Shown here in pieces: positions 1,191-45,673 of a stretch of 64,000 bases of DNA. The notes under the pieces were generated by a model. It saw nothing but the letters and a program-made list of their open reading frames with translations. It searched no databases and was not told the origin of the DNA. The stretch comes from Prorocentrum cordatum (taxonomy: Eukaryota): assembly GCA_963575745.1 (NCBI GenBank), contig CAUYUJ010000324.1:1-64000 (forward strand). Reading direction: 5' to 3'. A program made the translations under genes and the position numbers. The stretch's first letter is position 1. The number at the start of each line of letters is the position of its first letter.

Positions 1191-4100
1191 CGCGCGGGTC
1201 CAAGACGCGCGGGGACGACCTTCTTAATTCTAACTCGACAGGTTTCCCCCGTGCACTTGGCGTCGACCCCGTCTCTTTGCGCGTCGATCGGAGGGTCGCA
1301 GTGGCGGGCTGCGGCGCGCTCGGGCCCGCGCGTGCCTTCCTCTGTCCTCCGACGGAAGAACGCATCTATTCATCTGTCAGCTTTGATGGGGCGCTCTGGC
1401 TCGGCCCACCGTTCCTCGGCAGTTCAAGAGCCGGTCTCGGGGGCGACGATTTTTTCCAGCCTGCGGGCGCCTCGGCAGCTTCACATGTAAGTCCTCCGCG
1501 TTCCTGTCCTGTTCGCATGCTGGCGCAGCCAGAATGTCATCGCCAAATTCAAATGCGCGGTTATCATGACCTTGGCCATCTGCGTGAGACTCTCGACCGA
1601 GGATGGTCACCCCGCCTAATGGCGGCGTTCGGAATCCAGATCCAATGGAAAATGCTGCGGGAGCTGCGCATCGCGGCGCTCCCATCCTCGGGGCAAGGCA
1701 CAAGTGTTCCACCTGGGAACCCCCCAAACCGGCGCGGGTGACACAGTCGCCGGGCGCTGGTCGGGCAGGTCACGGATGTCCAAGGGCGTGGGCCCTGTCC
1801 AAACAGACCCTCCCGACTGGGCAGGTCTGTCCAGCCAGGTGCCTCCAGCATTGTCGTTTCTCCTTGCCGCGCCCTTGCCGCTCCCCTTCGACTTGTCCTC
1901 GTCGTTGCCTTGCGCAGGCGCGGCATTATTCTTGGCTTACTACGCCGCGGCGGACTTCTGGCCCTGGCTGCGCTTGCAGGGGACAGCTTTGCCGATGCTG
2001 TCCATGTGCGCCTCGCACTTGTCACGCGACTGCTTCCCATCCTTCGCGGCCTGCCTGCGTTCGCGAGGGCGCTTCTCAGGCGACAGTGGGCAGGGGCCGC
2101 GGCTAAGCGCGTGGCATAGTCAATTCTTCGCGGAGTTGACGCTGGAGGCGCGGGTCTGCGATCGACCCTGGTCATTGCCACCATCTATAGTTCGGTCAGC
2201 GGGGCGCCCCTCGCCCCTGCCGCGCACGTTGTCTTCCCCGTTTCTGCCCCCCCCCCCTGTGCCTGTCATTTTCTCCCCGCTGCTTTCGCCGCCATCCTTG
2301 CTAGCCCGAGCAGGCGCGGCCAGTGCTGGAGCGGCAGGGTCGCCACTTCCTTTTGGGCTCAGGCATCGGCACTGTGCTCGGGAGCCTGGGCACTTGCTCT
2401 GGGGGAACTTGTTGCAGGTGGCCGACTTCTCTAAGCGACCGTCTTTAATGTAGAGAGCATGCCCGCCCTTGCCGGCCCTCGACCCCCCCGCCGCCCCCCG
2501 CGCCCCCCGCGGGAAGGCCGCGGGTGTTCAGCGCTATCCGCTCCTTCTCGCGGTTGATCTGCCCGCGCCCCTTCTCCGTGAAATCGCTGACCTTCAATGG
2601 CAACCACTCGTGCGACTTCATCCCAGCGCCGCGCTCGTCGCTGCAATGATCATAGATCACCAGTGTCTCTTGCATGCAAGGATGCTGTTTCATTTGTCGC
2701 TAGAAAGGTTCCTGCGTGGCGGGGCGGAACGAGTCATTCAATTCCACCATCGCGTTGGGCTTCCTCACCCGCTCGTCATAGCGAAAGAATAGGTCGCCAT
2801 CCGCTTTCTTGCCCGGACCGCGGATCGCGCCACCCTGACCCTGGTCCTGACGGGTGGTCACATGGACGGCAATGATACGTATAATCTCACGACCCTTGAT
2901 CATGTTCCCGGCGGCTTGCGTGGAGATGTCTAGCATTTCTATCTCACCTGCGAGGTGACGGAGCAAAGATTAATATTGCCTGCCACTGACTATCTCGCTA
3001 ACCTTTGCCATGGGGTCTGCCGTAAGCATTGGGTCAAGCCTGACGAAATGGCCCGGGCCCTTCAACTCGTCTACCTCGACGTTCTTGAGATCGAACGCGT
3101 CCGCCACCCAGCTGACGGCTTCAGATCGGCGATGCCGATGCCGCAGTCCTGACCACTTTGCGCTGCCATCGCTTGAAATTGGCGACGTTTGGGATCGCTT
3201 CCCAGACTGCTCGATCAAATGTTACTGGCATCCTCTCAGCGCTGCGCAGCGGCAGGAGCCGCGAAGGAGCGGGCGTGCCACCGTCGCCGCCGCTTCCGGG
3301 CGGGGCGCCGCCAGGCGGTCCTCCGTCGGGCGCTGGGCACTGGGCACTCTTCGTCTCCAGGATAGTAGTCCTCATCGTCCTCGTCGTCGTCGTCGTCGTC
3401 GCCATCTCCGCCACCTGGAAGTCCTCGTCTCTTCGCCATCTCCGCCACTCTTCGTCTCAGTTGTCCTTATCGTCATCTGGAGGACCTGGGCCTGGAAGTT
3501 TCGGTGCCGCGTCTCCATGGCGTCTTCCCGCGTGGAGGTGTTCGACGAGCCCCCCAGCCCCGCCGGCGCGCGCCGGCAGAGAAGTCCCCTTGCGGGCTTG
3601 GACTGGCTCGGGGTCTGACTTCATACCCCTCTGCTCTTGAGCGCAATTCTCAGCCTTGCCCTCTCTTTCCTGGGTCTGCCGTAGTAACGCGGCAGCCGCT
3701 TCGGCTCGTTGCTCGCGCATTCCCTTGACCTTCGCCTTGCGCTCAACCTGCATCCCGGCATGGTCCTCTTCCCGCTGCATTGCCTGTTCGAGCATGTCCT
3801 TGAAACTCGCATGTTCAACCCTCGCGGCCCGCTCAAGCTCGCGCAGCCTCTGTGACGCGCCGCTTTTCGCCCGGTTCTCATCCTATCCCGAGGCGCGCCC
3901 GCGGGCAGACGCAGGCCGTGGCGGGCAGTTAGGAGGGCGAGCCCCTGGCGCAGAGGCAGCGGCATTCTGTTCCTCGAGCTTCCTGCTCGCCTCGCGTGCC
4001 TCGCAATTTCTCTTTGGAGCCTTTGCCCGCTGCGCCGTCTCTCCGCGTCGTCTCCTCGCCGTGGCAGCGCGCGCGCATCTCGTCCCCCGGGGCAAAAAGA

Positions 4101-8339: not shown

Positions 8340-8620
8340 CCTGCTTCTCCTTGTCGTCCTCCTCCCCCTCGTCGTCGTCGTCCTCCTCCTCCTCTTCCTA
8401 TTCCTCCTCCCCCTCTCTCTCTTCCTCCTCCTCCTCCTCCTCCTCCACCTCCTCCTCGTCCTCCTCCTCCTCCTCCCTCTCCTCCTCCTCCCCTCTCTAC
8501 TCCTCCTCCTCCTCCTCCTCCTCCTACCTCCTCCTCCTCCTCCTCCTCCTCCTCCTCCTCCTCCTCCTCCTCCTCCTCCTCCTCCTCCTCCTCCTCCGTC
8601 TCCTCGCCCTCCACCTCCCC
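8340..8620. repeat. (CCT)n microsatellite
   Basis: Long imperfect CCT trinucleotide run. Confidence 0.95.
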
Positions 8621-8707
8621 CTTCACAATTACTCAATATGAAAATACTCCCCCTCTCTCCCTGATGGCGTCCGGGTGATGGCCGCGCACCCTCCGCGTAC
8701 TGTTTTT

Positions 8708-10545
8708 CCCCACCATTCTGTGGTGTTGGGTCCTCGTTTTGAAGAGACGTTGCCCCGCGTTCCTCCTCCTCCTTCCTCCTCCTCCCCTTCCTCCCCCCTC
8801 CTCCCCCTCCCACACCCATTCTGGCACACCCCTCACACGTTTCGTGGCCCCATAGGGAGCTCCACCGAAGGCCCCAGTGGCTGCGCCCGCATGCGGTTCC
8901 ACCCCCCATTCTGGCACACCCCTCACACGTTTCGTGGCCCCATAGGGAGCTCCACCGAAGGCCCCAGTGGCTGCGCCCGCATGCGGTTCCACCCCCCATT
9001 CTGGCACACCCCTCACACGTTTCGTGGCCCCATAGGGAGCTCCACCGAAGGCCCCAGTGGCTGCGCCCGCATGCGGTTCCACCCCCCATTCTGGCACACC
9101 CCTCACACGCTTCGTGGCCCCATAGGGAGCTCCACCGAAGGCCCCAGTGGCTGCGCCCGCATGCGGTTCCACCCCCCATTCTGGCACACCCCTCACACGT
9201 TTCGTGGCCCCATAGGGAGCTCCACCGAAGGCCCCAGTGGCTGCGCCCGCATGCGGTTCCACCCCCCATTCTGGCACACCCCTCACACGTTTCGTGGCCC
9301 CATAGGGAGCTCCACCGAAGGCCCCAGTGGCTGCGCCCGCATGCGGTTCCACCCCCCATTCTGGCACACCCCTCACACGTTTCGTGGCCCCATAGGGAGC
9401 TCCACCGAAGGCCCCAGTGGCTGCGCCCGCATGCGGTTCCACCCCCATTCTGGCACACCCCTCACACGTTTCGTGGCCCCATAGGGAGCTCCACCGAAGG
9501 CCCCAGTGGCTGCGCCCGCATGCGGTTCCACCCCCCATTCTGGCACACCCCTCACACGTTTCGTGGCCCCATAGGGAGCTCCACCGAAGGCCCCAGTGGC
9601 TGCGCCCGCATGCGGTTCCACCCCCCATTCTTCTGGCACACCCCTCACACGCTTCGTGGCCCCATAGGGAGCTCCACCGAAGCCAGTGGCTGCGCTCGCA
9701 TGGGGGCACACCCCTCACACGCTTCGTGGGTGGCTCCATGGGGAGCTCCACCGAACGCCCCAGTGGCTGCGCTCGCATGTGGTTCCCCCCGCATTTCGGC
9801 ACACCCCTCACACGGTTCGTGGCCCCATAGAGAGCTCCACCGAAGGCGCCAGTGGCTGCGCCCGCATGCGGTTCCGCCCCTTTTTTCGGCACGCCCTTCA
9901 CACGTCTCGTGGCCCCATAGGGAGCTCCACCGGATGCCGCAGTGGCTGCGCTCGCATGCGGTTCCACCCCCCATTTCGGCACATCCCTCAGACGTTTCAT
10001 GGCTCCATAGCTCCACCGAAGGCCCCAGTGGCTGCGCTGGCATGCGGTTCCACACCCCATTCTGGCACACCCCTCGCACGTTTCGTGGCCCCATAAAGGG
10101 GGCTCCACCAAAAGGTCCCAGTGGCACTGCCCGCTTGCGTCCGCCACCACCCAGCACAGCCCTTGTTCCCTGCGTTTCACCCACCCAGAACAGCGCTTCG
10201 TAGCCCTATAGGGAGCTCCACCAAAGGTCCCAGCGGCACCGCCCGCATGCGTCCGCCACCACCCTGCGCAGCCCTTGCTCCATGCCTGCGTTTCACCCAC
10301 CCAGTACAGCGTTTCGTGGCCCCATAGGGAGCTCCACCGAAGGTCCCAGTGGCACCGCTCGCATGCGTCCGCCACCACGCAGCACAGCCCTTGCTGACCG
10401 CGTCTCACCCACCCAGTACAGCGTTTCGTGGCCCCATAGGGAGCTCCACCGAAGGTCCCAGTGGCACCGCCCGCATGCGTCCGCCACCACCCAGCACAAT
10501 TGCGGCATTCACAACTGCATATGGTTGGGTCCTTCGCCAAGCTAA
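8708..10545 (-). mobile_element. Non-autonomous inserted element carrying a 90-bp minisatellite
   Basis: Absent from the homologous copy at about 53291 and flanked by T-runs (8703-8707 and 10546-10549). Both ends contain gttgggtcct. Strand is inferred from the A-run at the minus-strand 3' end. Confidence 0.7.
8821..10500. repeat. 90-bp tandem minisatellite: about 10 near-identical copies, then degenerate and longer variant units
   Basis: Unit ctggcacacccctcacacgtttcgtggccccatagggagctccaccgaaggccccagtggctgcgcccgcatgcggttccaccccccatt starts at 8821, 8911, 9001, 9091, 9181, 9271, 9361, 9450, 9540 and about 9632. Confidence 0.97.
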
Positions 10546-11401
10546 TTTTACACACAAGATGCCCGGGAAATCCCGGGAAACGACTCTCGCTGAAGCGCCG
10601 GCGTCATTTTTTACCAAAATGCTGCTCTCGTTGAGGCGCCGGCCTCATTCCTGCTCCCGAATCGTTCCGAATCGTGCTCCCGCTGCAGCGTGGGCCTCAT
10701 TTTCGGATCGGTGTTTGGCCTCCGTCGTTCAGGATGGCGTTCTCGCCCCAGCGCGGGCCTTTTTCTCGCGCGCCCATCCGCCCGCCACCACCGCGCCGCA
10801 CCGCCACCACCACCACCACCACCACCACCACCACCACAACCACCACCAGCACCAGCACCAGTACCAACACCACCACCACCAGCACCACCACCACCACCAC
10901 CAGCACCACCACCACCACCATCACCACCACCACCACCACCACCACCACCACCACTACCACCACCACCACCACCACCACGACAACCACGCACACACGCACG
11001 CACGCACGCACGTGCACCACCACCCACTACGCACGCGCGCGCGGAGCCACAGGTCCGCTACGACACGCGTCCGCGGATAGAGAAAATCAGCGCCATGCAC
11101 CACTACCACCCCCACCACCACCACGACAACCACGAACACACGCACGCACGCACGCACGTTCACCACCAACCACTACGCACGCGCGCGCGGAGCCACAGGT
11201 CCGCTACGACACGCGTCCGCGGATAGAGAAAATCAGCGCCATGGTAAGGGATGGGAGGGAGGGGTAGGACGTCAGATATGACGCGAGCGCACCTAGCTTG
11301 CCCCCTCCCCTCCCTGTCATACCCATCCTCCTTCCGCCTGCTCCCCATCTCACCTGCGCCCCATCCATCCTCTGCACAGGATCCCGCAGGCAACCGGTAA
11401 A

Positions 11402-11948: not shown

Positions 11949-13859
11949 CTCTGCTCCAGCCAGGGGGGAAGCAGGAGAGGAGAGGGGAGCGGGGGCGGGG
12001 GAGCGGGCCCGGGCCCAGAAGCGGCCTGGCCGGGACCGGCGGAGTGGCCAGCCGAAGTCCGACGAGAACCGGCAGGATCAAAGATGGGGCCCTGAGGGGT
12101 GGGGCCCCAAGGACGAGTGGCCACAGACAGGACCCCATCCCTGGACCGCCTGGAGAGGGGTGGGGGGTGGGGGCAAGGCAACAAAAAGTAGGCGCTGCTG
12201 CTGGCGCCGGCCACGCGGTCCTACAGGAGCAGGGCGGTGGGGCCGTGACCCTGCGGTTGGAGGTGGCGTGCTCGCAAGAGGGGCGGAGGGCAGGGAACGC
12301 GGGGACAGCAAACGACCACAACCACATCGAGGACAGACCTGGGGGCATGTCTTGCACCTGCCAAAAGTTGTCGGAACACCGCAGTCGGCTTCGTATTGGT
12401 TGTGGTCGGTGTGGCGCCCCAAGACGGCCAACTCGACCACAACCACAACCAAAGTGTTCATGTCGAGGTCGGTGGGTTCTCGCCCGAGTGGTTATGGTTC
12501 TTTGCTGTGCCTGGAGGCAAGCGGGCACGGACAGACGATGAGTGGAAGAGTGGAGGAGGAGGCAGGCGGGCAAGGAAGGGCGCACGGGATGGGAGCAAAA
12601 AGCGAATGGGGCAGAGGGGGTATGACATACGGTAGAATATGGAAGGGGGAAAATTCCTCCTTTTCCCTCTCCTCTTCCTTTATTATTTTCCTCCTGATCC
12701 TCCTCCTCCTTCTTCCCATCCCTTGGATGATTACGTCGACGCCCCCAGCGCCCAGCGCACGGGGGGCGCGCGGGAAGGACAACTCCTTCGCCTAATTACC
12801 GCCTCCTCACTTCCTCCCCCGCTCCCATTTCCTTATCATCCTCCTCCTCTGCTCGTCTCCTCCCCCCCACCCCTCACCCCCCCCTGCTCCCCGTTTTCTT
12901 CAGTGCGCCGAGACTGGTGGCGCAAGAGACGCTGGCCTCACGGGCACCGGGGGCAGGCACCACCACATTCCATGGGATAAGGGGCAGCAGCGCCACATGA
13001 GAAAGATGAGGAGGAGGAGGGGGAGGAAAAGGAGGAGCCTCGGCAATATCAACAACATAAGAAGACACACGTTGCAGGAATAGGGGGATGGGGAGGCTGG
13101 GGAATGGCAGGACGATGAGAGGGGAGAGGAGGAAGAGGAGGGGGGGAAAGAGGATGGGATATAGGAGGGATAGATGAATGAGAAACAGAGAGAGGGAGAG
13201 AGAGAGAGAGAGAGAAACAAAAAAGAAAGAAAGAAAGAGAGAGAGATAGAGAAAGAAAGAGAGAAAAAGGGAGATAAAGAGAGAGAGAGAGAGAAAGAAA
13301 CATAAAGGGATATGCTATAGAGAGAGGCCACAGGCTGCATTTGTCTCGGAGGGAGAAGATGGGAACGGACAGCTTGAATCCACCACTCGCACTCATGAGC
13401 AATGCGTACGCCCCAGACAATCCAGCACATTGACGCGGGTAGCGCTTGCCTGCCCCGGTCGCATGGTTGACGCAGTCTCGCGGCGTCTACTTGCGTGCTG
13501 ACACTACGGGGGATGTATTGCACCAGCGATGTGCCCTGCGCTTAGGAAGAATAGCCCGCGCAGTACTTCCTCCAGCCGCTAATGAAATAACCATCGACAC
13601 AACAAACCGCCATGTGAGTGTCCCCGGCGCTGGTTCACGCAACCCCGGTGGCTTTCTCAGCCGAAAAACATATAACCAATACTGGAGGGATAACATGGAA
13701 GCAGGCCCCAACCCGCTCAAAACCAATGCGCCAACGAGGCTCCCAGCGCGCTAGAGCACACAACGCTGCGATTGAGAGGCAGCAGGGTGGCCGACCAAAC
13801 AGAAAAAAAGAGGAGGAGGAGGGGGAGGGGGAACAGGGGAAAAGGCGGCCTAACTAAGT

Positions 13860-16318
13860 TCATGGCGGGCACCTGTGCAGCACGCCTCATATGCGGCATC
13901 ACGCGCAACTCAACTGCAACAGCCTGGGCGTTCGGGGCACGTGCGTGGTGCTGGGGAGCGGGCGCACAAGACATTGTGGCAAGATGCTAAGCATCCGTTC
14001 AGCCCATGGGCTGAAGCTGAATCCCACCAGCCCTCCGAGCGCTGGGGGGGGGGCCGGGCGGGGGAAGCCCCGGGTGGCCCCGAAATGCCCGGGCGGTCTC
14101 AGATAGATCAGCGACGGCGCCTGCGCTGGCTGATCTGAGGAGGAGGAGGAGGAGGAGGAGGAGGAGGAGGAGGAGGAGGAGGAGGAGGAGGAGGAGGAGG
14201 ATGAGGAGGAGGAGGAGGAGTTGGAAGAGGAGGAGGAGGAGGACGACGAGGTGGAGGAGGCGGAGGGGGGTTTCCACCCGCGGAGGGCGCAGCCCTGGTC
14301 TTCGCCTACCTGAGCAGGCGCTGGAAGCCGAGCCCCCGCCGAATGACGGCGCGGCGCCTCCCTGCGATTACCTGCCGTGCGAAGCGGGCGGGGGCAGGAG
14401 GGAGACGCCGAAGAGACTGAAAAGTAGATTGGGTGGCATCTAGTGCAACGAGGTGGCTGGCCAGTGCGTCGGGGCCCCTTCGAATGAAAAGGTGAATGAG
14501 AAAGGCGCCCAGAGGGTCATCTCCCCAAAATGGGGGGGGCCCTGGAAGAAACTGCCGAAGATGGGGAGAGGACATCGGGCAGGAAACGCAGTGAAGAATA
14601 TCGCCTCCTCCCATGCACCTGCGCCCGACGAAACATCGCCCAGGACCCTGCCGATGCCTGCGGGTGGTATTCCAGGAATTGAAGATCGACTTAAGCACGG
14701 CAGCGAACACAGAACCAGGGGCAACCTCACTGGACAGCAGGATACGTAGAACGCTAAATCCACGCCAGCATCAAGAACCTGCGACGCCCACGTGCGAACG
14801 CGCAGCAGGAGGCGTCTGGCCCCTCTCCTTCGCGAGGGCAGCAGCGAGCTTGGCCCGGGCACCTCTCGGGTGGAGGTCAGGCGGAAGCTTCGGAATAAGC
14901 ACTGAACTGAGGCATTATTCGCGCATGTCGGCAACTATTGAATTGCGGTCGAAGGTTCTGCTCATCGTGTCACAAATGGAGTGGACGAGGGTAGACTTGC
15001 GGGCGACTCGCAACCGCGCGGCTCGGCTCTGCAACTCGAGCGAGGTCGCCTGCGCGCCGAGCCCGAGGGGCTCAAACGAGGGGGCGCTTCTGCCGGGCAT
15101 GAACACCGCGGGCTGCAAGTGGACAACTGGTGGGCTTCCCGTTCAGCTTTAAGAACATGTTTGGTCGGCGCGCGCCCCTGGCTGATATAGGGCCACGCGG
15201 GGCGGGGGGGGAGGGGGCGCGCGTCTCATGAGCAGCGATGCTCGTGGTAGGCTCTTCTGTCATCCCCTTTGCCATAATTGCGCGCTTGAGAACTTCCCCG
15301 CGTGCGCCTTTCCACGAACGACCCCTCCCATCCTTCCCAATCATAAACCCAAGATCTCCACCATCAATTTGGCGATGTTAATGCCAGCGCGTGTGAAGCG
15401 ACCAACAGCTCCACCGACCAGCTCGGGGCTGGTTAGGATGGCGACGCGCTTGGCTGTGTTCAGCATCAGCCCGGTGGCGCATCCAAAAACAACAGATGGC
15501 TCTGGTGGCGGGCCCGAGCGAGCTGAAAATGCCGGCGGCGACCAGCGCAATATCATCGGCGGAGGCTGAAACCTGTTTGGGGAGAGCGGTGGCCAGGACC
15601 TCAATGTAGTGGAGAAGCGGATCAGGAGCCAGGGCGAATAAAACGCCAGAGAGCGGGCGCCCTTGTCTGACTCCTCTGAGGGCCTGGAAGGAGACCTCGC
15701 GGGAAGCCTTGCATGACCTGGTGCAAGGTAAATTCTGGCACAACCACATGATGGCAGCGATGGTGAACTCGGGGGACCGAAACGCACGCATAACATTCCA
15801 GATACATTCATGTAGGGCCGACGGAAAAACAACGCGAAACTCACGCAGACAGGCCCCGCATTCCGCGCGGCAAAGGATGGCGCCCCAGTGCGTGATATTA
15901 AAGCCAACCTCGTGCACATCGCCCATGCTACTTTTACCGCGGATGAAGCCACGCTGAGACGAATGACATTGATCGGCGATGACGTGCGGCAGGGGGCGGC
16001 GATAAAGGCTGCCAGTGATTTTGTTGTCGGCGCTCGGGAGAGCGATGGGTCTCGCGTCTTCGAAGACTTCCACGACGTGACTGGGATCGGGGGGATCGAA
16101 TTTGGCTGGCAGAGCAAGCTTGGAGCAAGTTTCATCGATATGGGGGCCCCGCCCCCGAGGACATGTTCGCGCCCTTCGCGCGGCGCCTCTTGGGCAGCAG
16201 GGCCATCGGCTCTCCAGGCGCTGCAGCATGGGTCGTCGGGGCCTGGAGCTGAATTCCATGCGCAATGAGGCGTGTCCAGGAAAAGGCCAAAGGTTGGCAA
16301 CTAAGGGCACCGCGGTGG
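13860..16318 (-). mobile_element. Decayed LINE ORF2, RT and C-terminal half (copy 1)
   Basis: Motifs SAPGPD, QRGFIRGK, FPSALHE, GVRQGRPLSGVLFALAPDPLL and SADDIALV (decayed YADD); multiple frameshifts; interrupted by (GGA)n at about 14140-14250. Confidence 0.85.
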
Positions 16319-16340
16319 TCCGCTGTCATTCTGGCCCAAG
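16319..16340 (+). other. Relic dinoflagellate spliced leader (DinoSL), copy 1
   Basis: tccgctgtcattctggcccaag matches DCCGTAGCCATTTTGGCTCAAG at 17/22 and lies about 95 nt before the ORF1 ATG at 16434. Confidence 0.55.
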
Positions 16341-16433
16341 CTGGTTGGGGAGCTCGAATGGGTAACTTCGCCTGGAGAAGCACTCCTGGGTGCGAGCCCG
16401 GGCGGTCGCCGCCCCTCACCTTCCCCGAGCGCC

Positions 16434-17522
16434 ATGGCCGCCCCCGAGAACATGGTGGCGCAGATGAAGGCCATGCTCGACGCCAATGGGGAAGCCATCG
16501 CGCAGCCCCTGAAGTCGGAGCTGCAGCGCAACATCTCAGGGCTGCAAGGTCAGATATCCGCGCGGGGCACGGAACCCCAGCAGATCATGCGCGAGCTCTC
16601 GGTCCAAGCCAACAAGATCGCCAACCTAGAGTCCAAGGCCAGCGCCAGCGCGGGAACTGTGTCAGCTCACTTTCCTCAGCCGCATCTTCGCATCGACAAG
16701 CCCTCGAAGGAGGTGAAGCTCTGCGAGTCCAACATGATGAGTGGAATGGCAACCACGCGGCGAAATTCACAGGCGCGTTCCCTCGCCCCCATTCGTGTGA
16801 GAAGGCCAGGCAAACTCACTGGATTCAGTTGCAGTCCATGCCCCCCGGGTTGGGGGGCGAGCCAGGAGCCGCGGCCATCTTCCACGGCGCGAGCCAAGTG
16901 CACGCGCTGAAGTTCACCCGTGCCGCCGACGCCCAGAACTTCCAACGCGAGCTGAACCGAGCCGGCATGGAGCGGGCTGGTTTCCGCGACAACAATACTT
17001 ACAGCATCGGAGTTCGGGGTGATCTTCCACTGCGCGCTCCGCAAAAGAAAAGGGCGCTTCTGGTTTGTACTGCGATACCCTCGAAGAGTGCGAGAAATCC
17101 CACATGGCGCCAGCGACTGCAAGCTGGGGATCAACGGATCCAAAGGCGCTGCGCAAAACATCACCTCACGCGACGTCTACGAGCTGATCGCCGCCGCCCA
17201 GCAGGGCGAAGACACCTTCATGTTCGAGCCGACGAAAGACAACCTCAACAACTGGGACATTTCGGACGAGCGTTTCAGCGGCATCATCGAGGCCCTCTGA
17301 AAGGCGCTAGCGCGGCACAACAGTTGCCGGGACCTTGCCGCTCATCCCGCCGCCTCTTTAGCCGCTCCCATGTTTGCCCCCTCTGCCACCCAGGCCTAGC
17401 GCGAGATTTGCGAAGCCTCCAGCGGCCCCACCTCTTCCTCGCCCCCCCCCCCCCCCCCACAACACACACACACGCACACGCACCCACCCCCGCAAGCGCG
17501 CGCGTCAGCGGAGCCATCAGTT

Positions 17523-17553
<31 letters not shown>

Positions 17554-17919
17554 TACATATTCTCAGCACCTCCCTGACAGAGCGTTCAAGATTGCGACTT
17601 GGAATTCCCGGGCGCTGATTGGAACGCTGCGCGCAGACCAGGTTCGGATTCAACATGAGTTTCATTGACTTCAAGCCGCCCGTCAAAAGGGCCAGATCGT
17701 TTGCCCTCAAGAGACTCATGATGTCACTGGAGACCTGCCAAACTTGTCCCGCGAGTTCAAGATCCACTCTCCGCGCGGTTCGTCCTGCGAGCGCCCGAGT
17801 ACTGGAGGCCTCCTCATTTTTGTCGAGAACGCCCTGCTGTGCGACGTCCAATGTCTCTTTCCTGGTTGCGCTGCGCGCCTGAACCTGCGTGGGCTGAAAG
17901 GGGAAGCACAAGTCATCAG
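16434..17919 (+). mobile_element. Decayed LINE ORF1 and start of the APE-type endonuclease (copy 1, truncated)
   Basis: Coiled-coil ORF1 (MAAPENMVAQMKAMLDAN...) ending at about 17300, then AFKIATWNSRALIG, ALQETH-like and GGLLIFVEN endonuclease motifs; cut at about 17919 where the duplicate unit starts. Confidence 0.8.
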
Positions 17920-18617
17920 TGCTGCGCCTGGAGGCGCGCGGGCGCGGACAGACGATGAGTGGGCGACTGGAGGAGCAGGCAGGCTTGCAAAGAGGGGCGC
18001 GCGGGATGGGGGCACAAAGCGAATGGGGCAGAGGGGATGCGACCTGCGGTAGAATATGGAAGGGGGAAAATTCCTCCTTCCCCCCCCCCCCCCCCCCCCC
18101 CCCCTGATCCCCCCCTTCCTGATCCTCTTCCTCCTCCGCGCCCCTTGGGCGATTATGTCGACGCCCCCAGCGCGCGGGGGGCGCGCGGAGAGGGCAGCTC
18201 CCTTGCCTGCCGCCTCCTCGCCCCCCCCGCCCCTCCCCCCGCGCCCATTTCCTTATCGTCCTCCTCCTCTGCTCGCCCCCCCTCCCGCGCCCCCCCGCGC
18301 CCCTCGCCCCCCCCTGCCCCCCGTCTTCTTCGGCGCGCCTAAACTGGGGGCGCAAGAGACGCTGGCCTCGCGGGCGCCGGGGAAAGGAGCCACCACGGCC
18401 CATGGGTTAAGGGGCAGCAGCGCCGCGCGAGGGGGGGGCGAGGGGGGGGGCTCGGCAAGATCGGCACTGTGAGAAGACGCACGTTGCAGGAGTCGGGGGG
18501 TGGGAAGGCCGGGGAATGGCAGGAAGACGAAGGGGAGAGGCGGCGGCGGCGGTGGCGGGCGAGCGCGCGCGGGGCGGGGGGGGGGGCGGGGGGGGATCGG
18601 CAGGGGATACGAGCGAA

Positions 18618-18630
18618 GAAAGAGAGAGAA

Positions 18631-18699
<69 letters not shown>

Positions 18700-18726
18700 T
18701 ACAGAGAGAAAGAGAGAGAGAAAAAA

Positions 18727-18781
<55 letters not shown>

Positions 18782-18931
18782 GAGAGAGAGAGAGAGAGAG
18801 ATGGAAACAATAAAAAGATAAAGAGAAAGAGAGATGTCAATATATATAAATATATATACAGAGAGAGAGAACCGAAACAAAAAGAGAAAGAGAAAGTGAA
18901 AAAGACAGAGAAATAGACAGAGAGAGAGGGG

Positions 18932-18962
<31 letters not shown>

Positions 18963-19148
18963 AGAGAGAGAGAGAGAGAGGAGAGAAAGAGAGCAAGAGA
19001 AAAAGAAAGATAAGTAAACGCATATCTATATGTAATCAGAGAGAGAGAGAGAGAGAGAGAATAGAGAGAGAGGGGAGGAGAGAGAGAGAAAGAGAAAGAG
19101 AGAAGAGAGAATGAGAGAGAGAGATAGAGAGAGAGAGAGAGGAAGAGA

Positions 19149-19213
<65 letters not shown>

Positions 19214-19295
19214 CAACAAAAAAACAAAGGGATAGGAGAGAGAGAGGGAGAGAGAGAAGAGAGAGATATACATATAAGAGAGAGAGAGAGAGAAA

Positions 19296-19344
<49 letters not shown>

Positions 19345-19390
19345 GGGAGAGGAGGAGAGAGAGAGAAAAGAGAGAGAGAGAGAGAGAAAG

Positions 19391-19432
<42 letters not shown>

Positions 19433-19456
19433 ATAATAATAATAATAATATAAATA

Positions 19457-19490
<34 letters not shown>
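18618..19490. repeat. (GA)n block ending in (TAA)n and a poly(A) run of about 30 nt
   Basis: Read directly; much longer than the homologous (GA)n at about 13180-13325. Confidence 0.95.
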
Positions 19491-19491
<1 letters not shown>

Positions 19492-20109
19492 GAGAGGCCA
19501 CCGGCTGCAATTTTTCTCGGAGGGGAAAAATGGGGGCGGAGAGCTTAAATCCAGCACTCGCACTCATGAACAATGCGTGTGCCCCAGGCAATGTAGCGCA
19601 TTGACGCGGGTCGCGCTCGCCTGCCCTCGTCGCATGGCTCGCGCAGTCTCGCGGCGTCTCTTGCGCGCTGACGCGACGGGGGATATATTGCGCCAGTGAT
19701 TTGCCCTGCGCTTAGGAAGAATAACCCGCTCGGCATTTTCTCCAGCCGCTTTTCCCGCTGAGGGGGCGGATTTAGCGAGCGGGGGCCAAGCTCCGCGCCT
19801 GACCGCGCCAACATGAACTACTGGCACGCATCAATAGAGAGGCGCGGGGGCAAAAACAACGACATAACCATCGACGCAACCGACCGCCATGCGAGCGCCC
19901 CCGGCGCTGGTTCACACGACCCGGCGGCCTTCGCAGCCGAAAAAAATATAACCAACGCTGGGGGGAGAGCGTGGGGGGCAGGCCCCGACCCGCTCAAAAC
20001 CAATGCGCCAGCGAAGCCCCCGGTGCGCTACAGCACGCAGCGCTGCGATTGAGAGGCAGCAGGGCGGCAAAAAAAAAGAAGGGGGGGGGGGAGAGGCGAG
20101 AGGCGGCCT

Positions 20110-22915
20110 AACTAAATTCATGGCGGGCACCTGCGAAGCGCGCTGCATGCGCGGCATCGCGCGCGGCTCAACTGCAACAGCCTGGGCGCGCGGAGCGCGC
20201 GCATGGTGCCGGAGGGCGGGCGCGCGAGACATTGCGGCAAGATGATCAGCATCCGTTCAGGCCATGGGCTGAAGCTGAATCCCGCCAGCCCCCCGAGCGC
20301 TGGGGGGGGGGGGCCGGGCGGGGGAAGCCCCGGGCGGCCCCGAAGTGCCCGGGCGGTCTCATATAGATCAGCGACGGCGTCTGCGTCGGCTGATCCGAAG
20401 GGGAGGGGGGGGGGGGGCGCGCGGGGGGGGGCCCGCCCGCGGAGGGCGCAGCCCTGGTCTTCGCCTACCCGAGCAAGCGCTGGAGGCCGAGCCCCCGCCG
20501 AAAGGCGGCGCGGAGCCCCCCTGCGATTACCTGCTGCGCCGAAGTGGGGGGGTGGGGGGGGGGGCAGGAGGGAGGCGCCGAAGTGCGTCGGGGCCCCTTT
20601 GAATGAAAAGGTGAATGAGAAAGGCGCCCAGAGGGCTACCTCCCCAAATTGGGGGGTGCCCTGGAAGAAGCCGCCGAAGATTGGGGGAGGACATCGGGCA
20701 GGAAGCGTAGTAAAGAATATCGTCTCTTCCCATGCACCTGCGCCCGACTGAGCATCGCCCAGGGCCCTGCCGATGCCTGCGGGCGGTGTTCCAGGAATCT
20801 AAGATCGACTTAAGTACGGCAACAAACGCGGAACCAGGGACAACCTCACTGGACTTCAGGATGCGTAGAACGTATGAATCCATGCCAGCATCAATAATCT
20901 GTGGCGCCCACGTGCGAACGCGCGGTCGGAAGCTTCTGGCCCCTCTCCTTCGCGAAGGCAGCAGCGAGCTTGGCCCGGGCACCTCTCGGGTGGAGGTTAG
21001 GCGGAAGCTTCGGAATAAGCACTGAACTGAGGTACAGGCGCGCGCGTTGGCAACCATTGAATTGCGGTCGAAAGTTCTGCTCATCGTGTCGCAAAGGGAA
21101 TGGAAGAGGAGAGAGTTGTGGGCGACTCGTAACCGCGCGGCTCGGCTCTGCAATTCGAGCGAGGTTGCCTGCGCGCCGAGCCCGAGGGACTTAAACCGAG
21201 GGGGCACTTCTGTCGGGAGTGAGCGCCGCGGGCTGCAAGTGTACAACTGGTGGGCTTCAAGTTCAGCTTTAAGAACATGTCTGGTCGGCGCGTGCCCCTG
21301 GCCGATATAGTGGCACGCGGGGGCGGGGGGGCGGGGGGTGGGTGGGTGGGGTGGTTTGGGTGGGCGGGTGTGTGTGCGGTGTGCGTGGTGTGCGTGTGTG
21401 CGTGTGTTGCGTGTGTGTGTGTGTGCGTGTAGGTGCGCGTGTGTGTGTGTGCGTTGTTGTGTGTGTGTATGTGTGTATGTGTGTATGTGTTTGTGTGTGT
21501 GTGTGTCTGGTGTCTGTGTGTCTGTGTGTCTGTGTGTCTGTGTGTCTGTGTGTCTGTGTGTGTGTCTTTGTGTCTGTGTCTGTGTGTCTGTGTGTCTGTG
21601 TGTGTGTGGTGTGGTGTGGTGTGTGCGTGTGCGTGCGTGTGTGTGTGTGTGTTGCGTGTGTGTGTGTGTGCGTGTTGTGTGTGCTAGTGTGCGTGTGTGT
21701 GGTGTGCGTGTGCGTTGCGTGCGTTGCGTGCGTGTGTGTGTGTGTGTGTGCGTGTGGGTGTGTGTGTGTGTGTGTGTGCGTGTGCGTGTTTGTGCGTGTG
21801 TGTGCGTGTGTGCGTGCGTTGTGCGTGTGCGCGTGAGTGTTATGGGCAGCGGTGCTCGTGATAAGCCCTTCCCCCATCCCTTTTACCATATTTGCGAACT
21901 GAAGAACTTTCCCTCGCACACCTTTCCAAGAACGACCGCCCCCATCCTTCCCAATCATAGATCCAAGACTTCCACCTTAAACCTGACAGTGTTAATGCCA
22001 ACGCACTTGAAGCGGTCAACAGCTCCACCGAGAAGCTCGGGGCTCTGCGTTCAGCATCTGCCCGCTGGCGTATCCAAAAGAACATATGGCTCTGGTGATG
22101 GGCCCGGGCGAGCTGAAACTGTCGGCGGCGACCAGCGCAATGTCATCGGCGGAGGCTGAAACCTGTTTGGGAAAAGCGGCGGCCAGGGCCTCAATGCAGT
22201 GGAGCAGCGGATCAAGAGCCAGGGCGAATAAAACACCAGAGAGCGGGCGCCCTTGTTTGACTCCTCTGAGGGCCTGGGAGGAGACCTCGTGGGAAGCTCT
22301 GAATGACCTGATGCAAGGCGTGTTCTGGCACAGCAACATAATGGCCGCGATGATGAACTCGGGGGGCCGAAACGCACGCATAGCATTGCATATCCATTCA
22401 TGTAGGGCAGACGGAAAAGCAACGCGAACATCATGCAGAAAGGCCCCGCATTCGCCGCGGCAAAACATGGCGCCCCAGCGCATGATATTAAAGCCAACCT
22501 CATGCCAATTGCCATGATACGTTTACCGCGAATAAAGCCACGCTGAGGCGAATGGCCACGATCGGCGATGACGTGCAGCAGGGGGCGGCGATAAGGCTGC
22601 CAGTGATCTTGTCGCCGGCGTTCGAGAAAGCGATGGGTCTCGCGTCTTCGACGACTGACGACTTCCACGACGTGACTGGGATCGGGCGGATCGCACTTGG
22701 CTAGCAGAGCAGGCCCGGAGCAATGGAACTCGACATGTGCGTTCCGCCCCCGAGGATACGTTCGTGCACTTCGTGCAGCGCCTCCTGCGCAACAGGGCCA
22801 GCGGCTCTCCAAGCGCTGCAGCGTCGACCGTCGGGGCCTGGAGCTGAATGCCATTTGCAATCGGGTGTGTCCAGGAAAAGGCCAGAAAGGTTGGCAACTA
22901 GGGGCACCGCGGTGG
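20110..22915 (-). mobile_element. Decayed LINE ORF2, RT and C-terminal half (copy 2), interrupted by (GT)n at about 21340-21835
   Basis: Motifs HSAPGPDG, PQRGFIRGK, DVRVAFPSALHEW, GVKQGRPLSGVLFALALDPLL and SADDIALV; co-linear with copy 1. Confidence 0.85.
21340..21838. repeat. (GT)n / (GTGC)n microsatellite
   Basis: Read directly; absent from the homologous position of copy 1 (about 15220). Confidence 0.95.
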
Positions 22916-22937
22916 TCCGCTGCCATTCTGGCTCAAG
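22916..22937 (+). other. Relic dinoflagellate spliced leader (DinoSL), copy 2
   Basis: tccgctgccattctggctcaag matches DCCGTAGCCATTTTGGCTCAAG at 19/22 and lies about 85 nt before the ORF1 ATG at 23022. Confidence 0.75.
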
Positions 22938-23021
22938 CTGGTTGGGAAGCTCGAGTGGGCAACTTCGCCTGGGGGGGCGTTCCAGGGCGCGGCCCCAGGC
23001 GGTCGCCGCGCCCCGCGCGCC

Positions 23022-25735
23022 ATGGCCGCCCCCGAGAACATGGCGGCACAGATGAAGGCCATGCTCGACGCCAATCGGGAAGCCATCGCGCAGCCCCAGC
23101 AGTCCGAGCTGCAGCCCAGCATCTCAAGGCTGCAAGGTCAGATCCCCGCGCGGGGCACGGAATCCCGGCAGCTCAAGCGCGAGCTCTCGGTCCAAGCCAA
23201 CAAGATCGCCAATCTAGATTCCAAATCCAGCACCGGCGCGGGAACTGCGTCAGCTCACTTTCAAGAGGCGCATCTTCGCATCGACAAGCCCTCGAAGGAG
23301 GTGAAGATCAGCGAGTCCAACATGACGATGGGAATGGCAATCCCGCGGTCAAATTTATAAGCGCGTTCCCTCGCCCCCTTCTCATGGAGACCAGGCAAGC
23401 TCACTGGTTTCAGTTGCAGCCCATGCCCCCCGGATTGAAGAACGAGTCAGGAGCCGCGGCTATCTTCCATGGCCCGAGCTAATAAGTGTACGAGCTGTAG
23501 TTCACCCGTGCAGCTGGCGCCCAGAACTTCCAACGCAAGCTGAACCAGGCCGGCATGGAGTGGGCTGATTTCCGCGACAACAATAAGTACATCATCAGAG
23601 TTCGGGGTGATATTCCACTGCGCGCTCGTCAGGAGAAAAAAAGTGTTTTCTGGTTTGTATTGCGACATCCTCGAAGAGCGCGAGAAATCCCTCCATGGCG
23701 CCAGCGACTGCAAGCTGGAGATCAACGGATTCAAAGTCGTCATGCAAATCGCCACCTCGCGCGACGTCTACGAGCCGATCGCGGCCGCCTAGCAGGGCGA
23801 AGACGCCTTCAAGTTCGAGCCGACGAAGGACAACCTCGACAACTGGGACATTTCGGACGAGCGTTTCAGCGGCATCATCGAGGCCCTCTGATAGGCGCTA
23901 GCGCGGCACAAGGGCTGTCAGGACCTTGCCGCATATCCCACCGCCTCTCTAGCCGTTCCCATTTTTGCCCCCTCTGCCACCCAGGCCGAGCGCGGGGTTT
24001 GCGAGGCCTCCAGCGCCCCCCCCCCCCCTCGCCCCCGCCCCCCCCGCCCCCCCCCCACGCGCGTGCGTCAGCGGAGCCATCGGTTTTCCACCTCCCTCTT
24101 CTAAATATTCTCAACACCTCCCGGGCAGAGCGTTCAAGATTGCGACGCGGAGTTCTCGGGCGCTGATTGGATCGTTGTATGCAGACCGGGTTCGGATTCA
24201 ACATGAGTTTCATGCACTTCAAGACGCCCTTCGAAAGGACCAGATCGTTTGCCTTCAAGAGACTCATGCTGACACTGGAGACCTGCCAAACTTGCCCCGC
24301 GAGTTCAAGACCCACTCTCTGTGCGGTTCGTTCTGCGAGCGCCCGGGTGCTGGAGGCCTCTTCATTTTTGTCGAGAACGCCCTGTTGTGCGATTTCCAAT
24401 CAGTCTCTTTCCAAGAGCTCATCCCTGGTCGCATTGCAGGCCTGAACCTGCGTGGGCTGAAAAAGGAATTACAGATCAGCAATGCACGCATTGATCCTGA
24501 TCTTCTTGAACCTGGGGTCCGTCGGCAATTCCAAGCTATTCGAAACATCTTTCGGCCATCTCTCAGTGCTACTTCCTTCGCCCCGGAGACTTCAATTGCC
24601 ACGGACAAAAAGGGGAGGTCGGCGCAATCTCACCGCAGGTTCAGAACACTTCGGGACCTCGAGGAGACCAGCTCTATTTCACACACTTTTTTCCTGACCA
24701 TGCCAGGGCTGAAATAGCAAACTGTGCCCATCGCCGAGTTATCTCGCAACCTGCTGAGCAGATTTCCTTCGGCCGTCTCGATCGGATCTACTGCAACATC
24801 GCCACCCCCGACCTCCTGGACCCCTGCCCTGCCTGCTCCACCATCTGGAACGTCTCCGGCCTCACCTTCCTTTCCGGCCACGTCCACGTCGACCTCTCGC
24901 TCAAGCCGTGGAAACCTGAGCAGCATCACGTTTACTTACCTCCTTCTTGCCAGGCCTTCGTTCGCTAAACACTTCGAGGATCTCGTAAAAGGGCAAAAGC
25001 TGAGCGATGACCCCCCACGAGGCTAACCGATATTAAAACCTGATCGCCGCAGCTGGCCAGAAGACGAAAGCAGAAATGTTTCAAACGTCGGCCAACACGC
25101 TGCAGGAGAATATTGCCTGCTGTCTGAAGCTCGTTCGTGCGCACCGCTCTCTACTGGAACCTGCCGCCAAGAGTGCCACCCGTGCTGATCCCCAACTTAC
25201 CCCGCTCTACGACGCCGAACATATGATGTGGTGCAACTGGCAAGGCTTCCAATCATATTTACAGGAATTGATGTATCGGGAATTGGCGGCGCAGGAGGAA
25301 AGGACTCGCGGCCCCAAAAGCGGTCCCCGCATCAACCCTGACTTTCATCTCCTGCGTACTCGTAAGCACAGCAAAACCTGGAAGGCTGAGCAAAGGTCGA
25401 TTTGCCTCACTTGCATGATCGACCGGAAAGGACCCGAACAATTGGATGCGGACGTTTGTGCTGAGTTTTTTGTGTGCCCGCTGGGGCAAAGTATTTGGTG
25501 CCTGGCCAGGGCCACATGCGGCAGGAACTGAATACCTTCAACGTTTGTCCTCCATCGTTACGTCCCTGGGTTCAGGCGGAGGAGGAGGAGGAGGAGGAGG
25601 AGGAGGAGGAGGAGGCGGAGGAGGAGGAGGAGGAGGAGGAGGGGAGGGGGAGAGGGAGAAGAGGAGGAGGGGGAGGAGGAAAAGGAGGAGGAGGAGGAGG
25701 AGGAGGAGGACTCTGGATTGGTTGGTGCCTCCCCC
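23022..25735 (+). mobile_element. Decayed LINE ORF1, APE-type endonuclease and linker (copy 2)
   Basis: ORF1 at about 23022-23890; endonuclease motifs AFKIAT.SSRALIG, DQIVCLQETH, GAGGLFIFV, NARI, GDFN-like (ggagacttcaat at about 24585) and LDRIY (about 24777); linker ending ARWGKVF...LDWLVP. Confidence 0.85.
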
Positions 25736-25935
25736 CCCTGCAGGTCCTGCTCTCCCGCCCTCCCCACGACGGCCCGCCCATTGACTCGGCTCGGGGTGGC
25801 TTGGCGGGCGTGCGCGAAGCCAGAACCGCCAGAGACCCACACGCAGGGAGCGAGCCGGACGCCCGCCCACGGCTCGCGCCCAAGCTTATGTTGCCCCCAT
25901 CGTACTTGATGGCCACATCCCAAAAATAATGTTTA

Positions 25936-26011
25936 GGGGGCCACATGCGAACCCTACCCCTACCCCCCTACTATTTCTGGGGGGGAGGGGGAGGGTTCGC
26001 ATGTGGCCCCC
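25936..26011. mobile_element. Very short fold-back (MITE-like) element
   Basis: Arms gggggccacatgcgaaccct and agggttcgcatgtggccccc are perfect 20-bp inverted repeats; 9-bp flanks taatgttta and taatgtcga. Confidence 0.6.
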
Positions 26012-27024
26012 TAATGTCGAGCACCCGGAAAATTGTCGAAAGAGTGTCGGAAGAGTGTCGAAACAGTGTCGGACGAGTGTCCCCCAGGGCACGACACGTG
26101 AAGACGCTCGCGCTTTGGTACTTTGTTTGGTGCTCGAAATTCCAGGCGAGGTGGCCCACCCCCGCAGTCCGAGACGGCGGCAGAGGTTGGCGGCGAGCGG
26201 GGGGGTGGAATGAGAAGGAGAAGGCCCTCTGAGAAGGCGGCGGGGCTGCTCGAAAGCCCTCCGATCTTCTGAGAAGCTTTCTGTGTCTTCGGGGAAAGCT
26301 CAGAAAACTTCTCAGAAGGCTGGGGGACTTCCTACTGAAAAGGCCCGCCCCTTCTCACTTCCCCTCCTCGCTCGAGGACGAAGAGGGTGCAGTCAAGGAA
26401 ACACCATGCAGTCAAGGAGCGCAGACTGACTGAGGAACGAACGGGCTTGACCAGCCGCAAGCCTCGGCCACGAGTAGGTCTTCCTCGGCCTGAAGTGGTC
26501 CTCGTTTCGGCGTCTTGGCTGCAAGTCACGGCGGGCCTCTTCCCTGGGACACCTGGCCTGCCTCCTCGTGACGGTGGGCCCCGTCAGTCTCCGACACTGT
26601 CTTCGACGGCATCTCGGAGTGCACGCAGCTCTCGGGACAGGGGGCCCAGGACGCCCCGCCAGAGAGGGGCAGAAGAAGGAGGCGAGGAGTCAAGTGGCTG
26701 ATGCGAAGACGACGACGAGAGAGAGAGAGAGCGTGAAGAATGGAACCCCAACCAAAAATACGCCGATGGCTAGGGCTTGGCACGCCCGAAGTGGATACGA
26801 AAAAATAGATGCGAGGCCCAACAACGAAAGTTGCCCCAAACCGACAGCGGTAGGGGTTGGGCAGGCGAGCTTGTGGCTCAACTGGACAACGCCCGCGGCG
26901 GCACCGACAGCGAGCCCTGTTCGAAATCGGCAGGAAGTGCTACCGTTCTTCGTCCCCCTTTTGTTCCGTACCCATTTCGATCGTGCCGAAGTGGGTAAAA
27001 CGCACTCCCCGAAGGCGCCCCGGC

Positions 27025-43252: not shown

Positions 43253-43254
43253 AG

Positions 43255-45540: not shown

Positions 45541-45673
45541 ACTGTATGCAAAAAACGATCCCCCCCAGAAAACCCCAACGGCTCCCCAACGGCTGCCCAG
45601 ACCACCCTGTGGAGTAATGTGCTGCTCTCTTTTTACCCTATTAGAAACCTATCAGTCTTCAATGTTAGGTAAT

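What the first reader, a model, noticed from the sequence alone, without database searches (positions are those of the whole stretch)
20110..25735. LINE with a 5' inversion and a relic spliced leader at the inversion junction
Seen: ORF1 and endonuclease run on the plus strand from 23022, while the RT half runs on the minus strand from about 22915. The plus half stops near LDWLVP and the minus half starts just before SAPGPDG, so the two halves look consecutive in ORF2. At the head-to-head junction sits a 19/22 match to DinoSL (22916-22937). Known: twin priming of L1 produces this inverted-5' geometry, and DinoSL is added to mRNA 5' ends by trans-splicing. Inference: a trans-spliced LINE mRNA was copied to its very 5' end and integrated by twin priming, so this family may acquire its 5' end from host trans-splicing.
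Basis: partly seen in the sequence, partly recalled or inferred. Interest (0 to 1): 0.75.

Follow-up and report, generated by a model that had tools for sequence, protein, structure and literature searches.

The report
Inverted LINE joined at spliced leader
An old, decayed jumping gene (LINE) of a dinoflagellate lies in two back-to-front halves that meet exactly at a copy of the short leader these algae splice onto their messenger RNAs, which is best explained by the element having been copied from a leader-capped RNA and pasted in by the same "twin priming" accident known from human L1 elements.

Summary
A 19/22 match to DinoSL sits at 22916-22937 (+). It is the only such match in the window, and 0 of 100 shuffles gave one. 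To its right lie the 5'UTR, ORF1 (ATG 23022), an APE endonuclease and the ORF2 linker on the + strand. To its left lies the rest of ORF2 (RT to the C-terminal region) on the - strand.

A profile of 15 full-length relatives places the + half at ORF2 positions 8-440 and the - half at 491-1087. Weaker motif matches close the gap to within about 9 residues. No other EN or RT lies in the window.

Best reading (about 0.6): one twin-primed insertion of a spliced-leader-capped LINE RNA, whose second cDNA reached the RNA's 5' end. No target-site duplication, poly(A) tail or colinear copy of the same family was found.

Earlier notes of this scan report four other leader-headed LINEs in this genome. The new point here is the inversion architecture, seen at one independent locus. 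Interest is moderate.

The parts
20110..22915 (-). Non-inverted 3' half of the LINE. It holds ORF2 from about 22 codons before SAPGPDG through RT to the C-terminal region. It is decayed by frameshifts and stops.
   Evidence: Profile of 15 full-length relatives: 22856-22746 = positions 491-527, 22468-22049 = 619-757 (E 2.4e-28), 21321-21076 = 844-926, 20937-20671 = 999-1087. Pfam RVT_1, E 2e-6. Sequence read.
21368..21840 (.). (GT)n microsatellite inside the RT half. It is absent from the older tandem copy, so it expanded after the duplication.
   Evidence: TRF. Copy alignment: 21337 and 21831 both map to 15217.
22909..22915 (.). Seven bases between the leader relic and the shared GGTGCC. They may be filler or cap-derived bases at the inversion junction (inference). 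They are conserved in the tandem copy.
22916..22937 (+). DinoSL relic, 19 of 22, at the 5' end of the inverted half.
   Evidence: the only match in the window, 0 of 100 shuffles. DinoSL sequence in print: PMC12014239.
22938..23021 (+). 5' UTR between the leader relic and the ORF1 start codon.
23022..23894 (+). ORF1, decayed, with no Pfam family. It starts at ATG 23022. Its probable natural stop is near 23892, conserved in both copies.
   Evidence: Pfam found nothing.
24130..25573 (+). Inverted 5' part of ORF2. It holds the APE endonuclease (24154-24911) and the linker (25043-25573), including the motifs QRSICLTCMIDRKG and RWGKVFG.
   Evidence: profile positions 8-136 (E 5e-20), 139-251 (E 2.5e-13), 300-440 (E 1.7e-9); positions 78-103 of the linker profile; only 5 and 2 of 500 shuffles score as well.
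25574..25710 (.). (AGG)n microsatellite within the last part of the + half, probably a later expansion.
   Evidence: TRF. The two other large indels between the tandem copies are also microsatellites.
25711..25729 (+). Probable last bases of the inverted half (LDWLVP, in frame with RWGKVF), ending in GGTGCC. The same six bases, in the same codon phase, start the recognisable part of the - half at 22908-22903.
   Evidence: Relatives have the motif DW 17 residues before APGPDG. The 6-mer alone is not significant: 470 of 2000 shuffles.
12503..17921 (.). Older tandem duplicate of the left flank, the RT half, the junction and the ORF1-EN part up to the equivalent of 24485. It carries its own leader relic at 16319-16340 (17 of 22) and the same 7-base spacer.
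   Evidence: (72-84% identity), and ORFs.

Best explanation
This is a single retrotransposition event of an APE-type, two-ORF LINE.

Proposed steps:
1. The template was a mature, spliced-leader-capped mRNA.
2. First-strand cDNA, primed at the target nick, copied the 3' part of the RNA, from the ORF2 C-terminus back to just before SAPGPDG.
3. The other target strand annealed inside the RNA, at or near GGUGCC in the ORF2 linker. It primed a second cDNA that ran through the linker, EN, ORF1 and the 5'UTR to the first base of the leader.
4. Joining the two cDNA ends gave the head-to-head structure, with the leader at the inversion junction and about 7 filler bases.
5. The copy then decayed and acquired microsatellites. 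It was duplicated in tandem together with its left flank.

Shown: the anatomy, the complementarity of the halves, the leader relic and the duplication. Inferred: twin priming itself, the priming site, the nature of the 7 bases and the order of events.
For: 1. Leader relic in sense orientation, 84 bases before the ORF1 ATG, exactly at the strand switch.
2. The + half covers ORF2 profile positions 8-440 and the - half covers 491-1087, with no overlap. The motif RWGKVF (profile HW = 445) lies in the + half, where 5 and 2 of 500 shuffles score as well. In relatives the spacing is HW-x29-DW-x17-APGPDG. This places the end of the + half and the start of the - half within about 9 residues of each other.
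3. The same hexamer in the same codon phase lies at both breakpoints.
4. No RT of its own follows the + half, and no EN precedes the - half, anywhere in the 64 kb.
5. Relatives are colinear. 18 of 80 metagenome loci have EN on the RT strand and 0 of 80 have it on the other strand. The proteins are EN-then-RT.
6. The junction is present in an independent contig of reads and in the 83%-identical tandem copy, so it is old and real.
7. The twin-priming model predicts this geometry (passages of PMC2837659).
Against: - No target-site duplication. Only low-complexity 9-11-mers are shared between the flanks.
- No poly(A) or defined 3' end on the - half.
- The nearest full-length relatives are only about 30-35% identical in RT, so breakpoints are mapped by motifs and not base by base.
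- The shared hexamer is not significant alone: 470 of 2000 shuffles.
- An (AGG)n run lies between the last well-aligned linker motif and 'LDWLVP'.
- That both halves are of one family is indirect. The EN and RT rankings of relatives are uncorrelated (rho 0.05, n = 37).
- There is only one independent locus.
Confidence: 0.6

Rival explanations
1. A colinear, leader-headed LINE inserted normally. Its 5' 2.8 kb was inverted later by a DNA rearrangement, for example between the short inverted repeat GGCACC/GGTGCC.
For: The final structure would be the same. A 6-base inverted repeat lies at both ends of the inverted segment. The locus clearly underwent later rearrangement, namely a tandem duplication and microsatellite growth.
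Against: One inversion breakpoint would have to fall within 7 bases of the element's 5' end by chance. The hexamer is not beyond chance. Twin priming produces this form directly (PMC2837659).
Confidence: 0.12
2. Two independent retro-insertions lie head to head. One is a 5'-truncated LINE on the - strand. The other is a separately retroposed, 3'-shortened leader-ORF1-EN transcript on the + strand, with the purine-rich (AGG)n run as a relic of its tail.
For: 5' truncation is the common fate of LINE copies (recalled general knowledge). A purine-rich run ends the well-aligned part of the + half. Family identity of the halves is not directly shown.
Against: The truncation points of the two would have to coincide within about 9 of about 1170 ORF2 positions. 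My estimate of that chance is about 1-2%. They would also have to abut with only 7 bases between them. The motif 'LDW' continues in frame beyond the run. Other large indels here are secondary microsatellites.
Confidence: 0.1
3. Two RNA molecules of the same family were used in one integration event ('dual priming' or template switching). One was primed at its 3' end and the other internally.
For: The architecture cannot be told from twin priming. PMC2837659 says so for its own loci.
Against: It needs a second RNA and gives no reason for the near-exact complementarity of the two halves.
Confidence: 0.08
4. The junction is an assembly error, or the 22-mer is a chance or internal sequence of the minus-strand element.
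For: The minus frame is open across the junction. Two BLAST alignments of relatives run 7 to 27 codons past it at 25% identity.
Against: A contig of a public run spans 22688-23000 with no difference. The junction is kept in the 83% tandem copy. 0 of 100 shuffles give a leader-like match. The read-through peptide scores like shuffles against the linker profiles: 201 and 40 of 500. It has no likeness to the distal + half.
Confidence: 0.04

Closest known systems
Twin-primed (5'-inverted) L1 insertions of mammals. Ostertag and Kazazian 2001 is recalled. The model as described in PMC2837659 was read as passages.
   Same: There are two fragments of one element in opposite orientation with their 5' ends facing. 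The fragments are nearly consecutive. A short overlap and filler may lie at the junction.
   Different: The element is a dinoflagellate LINE only distantly related to L1; its clade was not assigned. The inverted part runs to the very 5' end of the RNA, marked by a spliced leader. TSDs and a poly(A) tail, which define the mammalian cases, were not found.
Relic-DinoSL retrogenes of dinoflagellates ('recycling of processed cDNAs'). Slamovits and Keeling 2008 is recalled. Passages were read in PMC12014239, PMC7245778 and PMC6050394.
   Same: A DNA-encoded copy of the 22-base leader stands at the 5' end of a retro-copied transcript, upstream of the start codon.
   Different: The copied transcript is that of the retrotransposon itself, not a host gene. 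There is a single relic and no array. It lies at an internal inversion junction, not at the edge of the insertion.
Leader-headed LINEs noted earlier by this scan in the same genome (e1-7626221, e1-7627054, e1-7625583, e1-7626222). These are unchecked AI notes.
   Same: They are LINEs whose 5' end is a DinoSL.
   Different: Those are described as colinear. This one is 5'-inverted, decayed and duplicated. No sequence likeness to them could be looked up.
SLACS, CZAR and CRE, site-specific non-LTR elements in trypanosomatid spliced-leader RNA genes (recalled).
   Same: A LINE lies next to spliced-leader sequence.
   Different: Those elements insert into the leader gene. Here the leader is in sense at the element's own 5' end, followed by its UTR and ORF1. 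No SL-RNA-like gene was detected (Rfam). The upstream sequence is the element's own RT half.

Membership tests
APE-type non-LTR retrotransposon (LINE) | Apurinic/apyrimidinic-type endonuclease domain at the N-terminus of ORF2 | tested here: met
   Pfam Exo_endo_phos, E 0.002, below the cut-off. Profile of relatives: positions 8-251, E 5e-20 and 2.5e-13. Relatives carry the Pfam domain above the cut-off.
APE-type non-LTR retrotransposon (LINE) | Reverse transcriptase domain downstream of EN in the same ORF | tested here: met
   RVT_1, E 2e-6 and 6e-6, just below the cut-off because the copy is decayed. Profile E 2.4e-28, and 4.2e-43 for the tandem copy. Here the domain lies on the other strand because of the inversion.
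APE-type non-LTR retrotransposon (LINE) | 3' tail (poly(A) or simple repeat) and target-site duplication | tested here: not met
   No tail on the minus strand. No credible TSD. The age of the copy (17% divergence between the tandem copies) and the microsatellites may have erased them.
Twin-primed 5'-inverted insertion | Two fragments of the same element, opposite orientation, 5' ends facing | tested here: met
   'Same element' is inferred from complementarity and not shown directly (one search was uninformative).
Twin-primed 5'-inverted insertion | Fragments consecutive apart from a small deletion or duplication at the junction | tested here: met
   The firm alignments leave a gap at profile positions 440-491. 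Motifs close it to within about 9 residues. A 6-base overlap is possible.
Twin-primed 5'-inverted insertion | TSDs bounding the whole structure and a poly(A) tail at the end of the non-inverted fragment | tested here: not met
Twin-primed 5'-inverted insertion | Microhomology between the target and the internal priming site | tested here: inconclusive
   GGTGCC stands at the outer end of the + half and at the start of the - half, but 470 of 2000 shuffles give as long a match. The empty target site is not available.
DinoSL-relic retrocopy | Near-complete 22-base DinoSL in sense orientation at the 5' end of the copied transcript, upstream of the start codon | tested here: met
   19 of 22 at 22916-22937, with the ATG 84 bases downstream. 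17 of 22 in the tandem copy.
DinoSL-relic retrocopy | Homology to the source transcript ends at the leader | tested here: inconclusive
   No other copy of the family is available. Upstream of the leader lies the other half of the element, and no linker-like sequence continues there.

The most novel reading that the evidence does not exclude
Dinoflagellate LINEs replicate from spliced-leader-capped mRNAs and so need no promoter of their own. They integrate by target-primed reverse transcription with L1-like twin priming, and their reverse transcriptase copies through to the capped 5' end. That would make LINEs, and not the LTR elements favoured in the 2018 review PMC6050394 (passage), the likely machinery behind the mass of DinoSL-tagged retrogenes in these genomes.
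Probability: 0.3. Interest if true: 0.7.

Novelty: new member of a known kind. Interest (0 to 1): 0.45.

Why it matters
Which retroelement makes the thousands of leader-tagged retrogenes of dinoflagellates is stated to be unknown (PMC6050394, passage).

A LINE copy that carries the leader at the tip of an inverted 5' segment is a natural record of two things. LINE RNA is itself trans-spliced, and LINE reverse transcription on the chromosome can reach the 5' end of a leader-capped RNA. The inversion is also a footprint typical of target-primed reverse transcription, which would place this mechanism in a lineage where it has not been studied.

I found no paper that joins 'twin priming' and 'dinoflagellate' (0 papers). 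None of the passages I read describes LINEs headed by DinoSL. Only passages were read, and no supplements were opened.

The weight is limited. This is one old, decayed locus without TSDs.

Tried and rejected
- Whole-genome search for other copies: no genome is held.
- Word-indexed protein searches with the RT fragment and with the first 71 residues of the - half, longer proteins only: no hit.
- HMMER over 1.84 billion representatives with the 315-residue RT frame of the tandem copy: 1042 hits at E up to 0.001. No full-length protein was closer than about 35%. The only closer ones are fragments of 86-98 residues at 50-56%. No family consensus was therefore available.
- Public runs: 3 were listed and one DNA holder was found. 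No RNA holder was listed.
- Laid contigs are short. None joins the + half to the - half in colinear form. Nothing covers 25542-25825, which was skipped as a repeat.
- Metagenome loci of relatives: 80 loci, 358 kb. 0 hold a DinoSL-like 21-mer with up to 3 mismatches, and none is closer than about 30-40%. Most contigs are short and need not be dinoflagellate, so this says little.
- TSD search between 25560-25830 and 19380-20720: only G- or C-rich 9-11-mers.
- Second, truncated leader relic behind the first: none without gaps. A gapped resemblance at 22938-22955, seen by eye, was not pursued.
- Rank correlation of EN and RT scores over 37 full-length relatives: rho 0.05, p 0.78, uninformative.
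- Likeness between the minus read-through (22700-23200) and the distal + half (25200-25900): none.
- Rfam at the junction: nothing.
- Earlier notes of this scan by sequence or place: nothing for the junction, EN or the right-hand repeat.
- ORF1 has no Pfam family. Its fold was not examined.
- Reading the element as an insertion into a leader RNA gene (SLACS-like) was rejected, as set out under Closest known systems.


Full report
**What is there**

The window is GC-rich. It carries one match to the dinoflagellate spliced leader (DinoSL; sequence as printed in PMC12014239, passage). The match is at 22916-22937 on the + strand and agrees at 19 of 22 positions. It is the only match with up to 3 mismatches in 64 kb on both strands, and 0 of 100 shuffles gave any. 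No whole genome is held for the window.

To the right of the 22-mer, on the + strand, lie:
- an 84-base 5'UTR;
- an ATG at 23022 that opens a decayed ORF1 with no Pfam family;
- a C-rich spacer;
- the N-terminal part of an ORF2.

To the left, on the - strand, lies the rest of an ORF2.

Pfam sees the two enzyme domains only weakly, because the copy is broken by frameshifts and stops. Exo_endo_phos scores E 0.002 and RVT_1 scores E 2e-6, both just under the curated cut-offs.

**Mapping the halves on relatives**

A HMMER search of 1.84 billion representative proteins with the best RT frame gave 1042 hits at E up to 0.001. No full-length relative was closer than about 35%. The relatives are ordinary EN-then-RT proteins. 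10 of the 150 listed proteins hit both the + half and the - half of the locus.

I chose 15 full-length proteins from the 150 and built a profile of 1170 positions.

| Half | Window coordinates | Profile positions | E-value |
|---|---|---|---|
| + | 24154-24558 | 8-136 | 5e-20 |
| + | 24564-24911 | 139-251 | 2.5e-13 |
| + | 25043-25465 | 300-440 | 1.7e-9 |
| - | 22856-22746 | 491-527 | 8.7e-7 |
| - | 22468-22049 | 619-757 | 2.4e-28 |
| - | 21321-21076 | 844-926 | 3e-9 |
| - | 20937-20671 | 999-1087 | 2.6e-7 |

Weaker pieces lie between these. The halves are complementary and do not overlap. No other EN or RT similarity exists anywhere in the window. The + half therefore has no RT of its own downstream, and the - half has no EN upstream.

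**Closing the gap between positions 440 and 491**

Relatives share a conserved spacing: 'HW..VF', then 29 residues, 'DW', then 17 residues, 'APGPDG' (45 proteins listed; a 36-protein profile).

- The + half holds QRSICLTCMIDRKG and then, in the neighbouring frame, RWGKVFG at the expected distance. This segment scores better than 495 and 498 of 500 shuffles against the two profiles.
- About 30 residues later an (AGG)n microsatellite begins (25574-25710).
- Behind it, in the same frame, stands TLDWLVP (25710-25730).
- The - half begins directly after the reverse complement of the leader, with 22 codons before SAPGPDG.

Both readings, whether the + half ends at the microsatellite or at LDWLVP, put its end and the start of the - half within about 9 residues of each other.

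The hexamer GGTGCC occurs at 25724-25729 (+) and at 22908-22903 (-), in the same codon phase in both halves. If it is the same piece of the element, the reading frame runs on across the join. The hexamer by itself is not beyond chance: 470 of 2000 shuffles give as long a match.

Seven bases (22909-22915) lie between it and the leader.

- The minus frame is open across the junction, and two BLAST alignments run a few codons past it.
- The read-through peptide (22917-23123) scores no better than shuffles against the linker profiles: 201 and 40 of 500.
- It has no likeness to the distal + half.
- The genuine linker is in the + half.
- That the RT half is of another family than the EN half cannot be excluded directly. 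The scores of 37 full-length relatives against EN and against RT are uncorrelated (rho 0.05), which is uninformative.

**Reality of the junction, and the tandem duplication**

A 313-base contig of a public DNA run covers 22688-23000 without a difference. That run may be the source of the assembly.

More telling, the whole structure is present twice. The following stretches align in order, with 72-84% identity:

| Left copy | Right copy |
|---|---|
| 12503-13326 | 17920-18751 |
| 13117-13580 | 19292-19750 |
| 13581-14155 | 19858-20415 |
| 14260-15217 | 20421-21337 |
| 15217-17922 | 21831-24485 |

This is a tandem segmental duplication. Its breakpoint lies inside EN, at the equivalent of 24485.

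The older copy keeps the junction, the 7-base spacer and a 17/22 leader relic at 16319-16340. All three differences from the canonical leader are shared by both copies. The inverted structure therefore arose once, before the duplication. The two copies are not independent evidence.

The two large indels between the copies are microsatellites: (GT)n at 21368-21840 and (GAG)n at 14137-14266. This makes a secondary origin of the (AGG)n run plausible.

**Mechanism**

The geometry is that of twin priming as described for L1 (PMC2837659, passages). The non-inverted 3' fragment and the inverted 5' fragment have their 5' ends facing and are nearly consecutive in the element.

Here the inverted fragment runs to the leader. 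The second cDNA therefore reached the 5' end of a trans-spliced RNA.

- A later inversion would need a breakpoint within 7 bases of the element's 5' end.
- Two independent insertions would need truncation points that coincide within about 9 of about 1170 positions, and ends that abut.

I rate twin priming at about 0.6, later inversion at 0.12, two insertions at 0.10, a two-RNA variant at 0.08 and an artefact at 0.04.

Missing are the hallmarks that would clinch it. No TSD was found, there is no poly(A) or defined 3' end, and there is no colinear family member. Relatives in metagenomes are colinear: EN is on the RT strand in 18 of 80 loci and on the opposite strand in 0 of 80. None of them carries a leader, which says little given short contigs of unknown origin.

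**Comparison and novelty**

Leader relics on retro-copied host genes are well known (passages in PMC12014239, PMC7245778 and PMC6050394). Twin priming is well known for L1.

Four earlier notes of this scan report leader-headed LINEs on other DNA of this genome. These are unchecked and were not tested here.

I found no paper joining 'twin priming' with 'dinoflagellate'. No passage among those read describes DinoSL-headed LINEs. Supplements were not opened.

The finding is a new member of known kinds, and a neat one. It is a single, old, decayed locus. Interest is 0.45.

Noticed in passing
window 25826-26100: A very high-copy repeat starts about 100-200 bases to the right of the LINE. Summed contig depth is 2372-3776, against about 3-5 over the LINE. 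It holds an 82-base palindrome at 25933-26014 with 85% arm identity, followed by an 11/22-base tandem array at 26026-26081. Earlier notes of this scan describe LINEs that target a transposon's terminal hairpin in this genome. A look-up by sequence found no link.
   Followed up: partly
window 18617-19490: An 800-base (AG)n array is followed by a run of 32 A, just left of the duplicated unit. The A run is absent at the equivalent place of the older copy. Whether this marks the 3' end of the LINE or of another retrocopy is open.
   Followed up: partly
window 8815-10498; 43252-45536; 45664-47999; 58448-60465: Several long tandem arrays, with periods of roughly 70-150 bases judging from the self-alignment offsets. 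They were not examined.
   Followed up: no
window 10551-11097 and 53295-53843: A dispersed direct repeat of about 550 bases at 94.7% identity. A second shared piece links 8547-8708 with 53129-53292. A run of 100 N lies at 51987-52086.
   Followed up: no
window 24014-24056: A C-rich tract lies between ORF1 and ORF2 of the LINE. It is longer and different in the tandem copy. Contig laying skipped it as a repeat.
   Followed up: no
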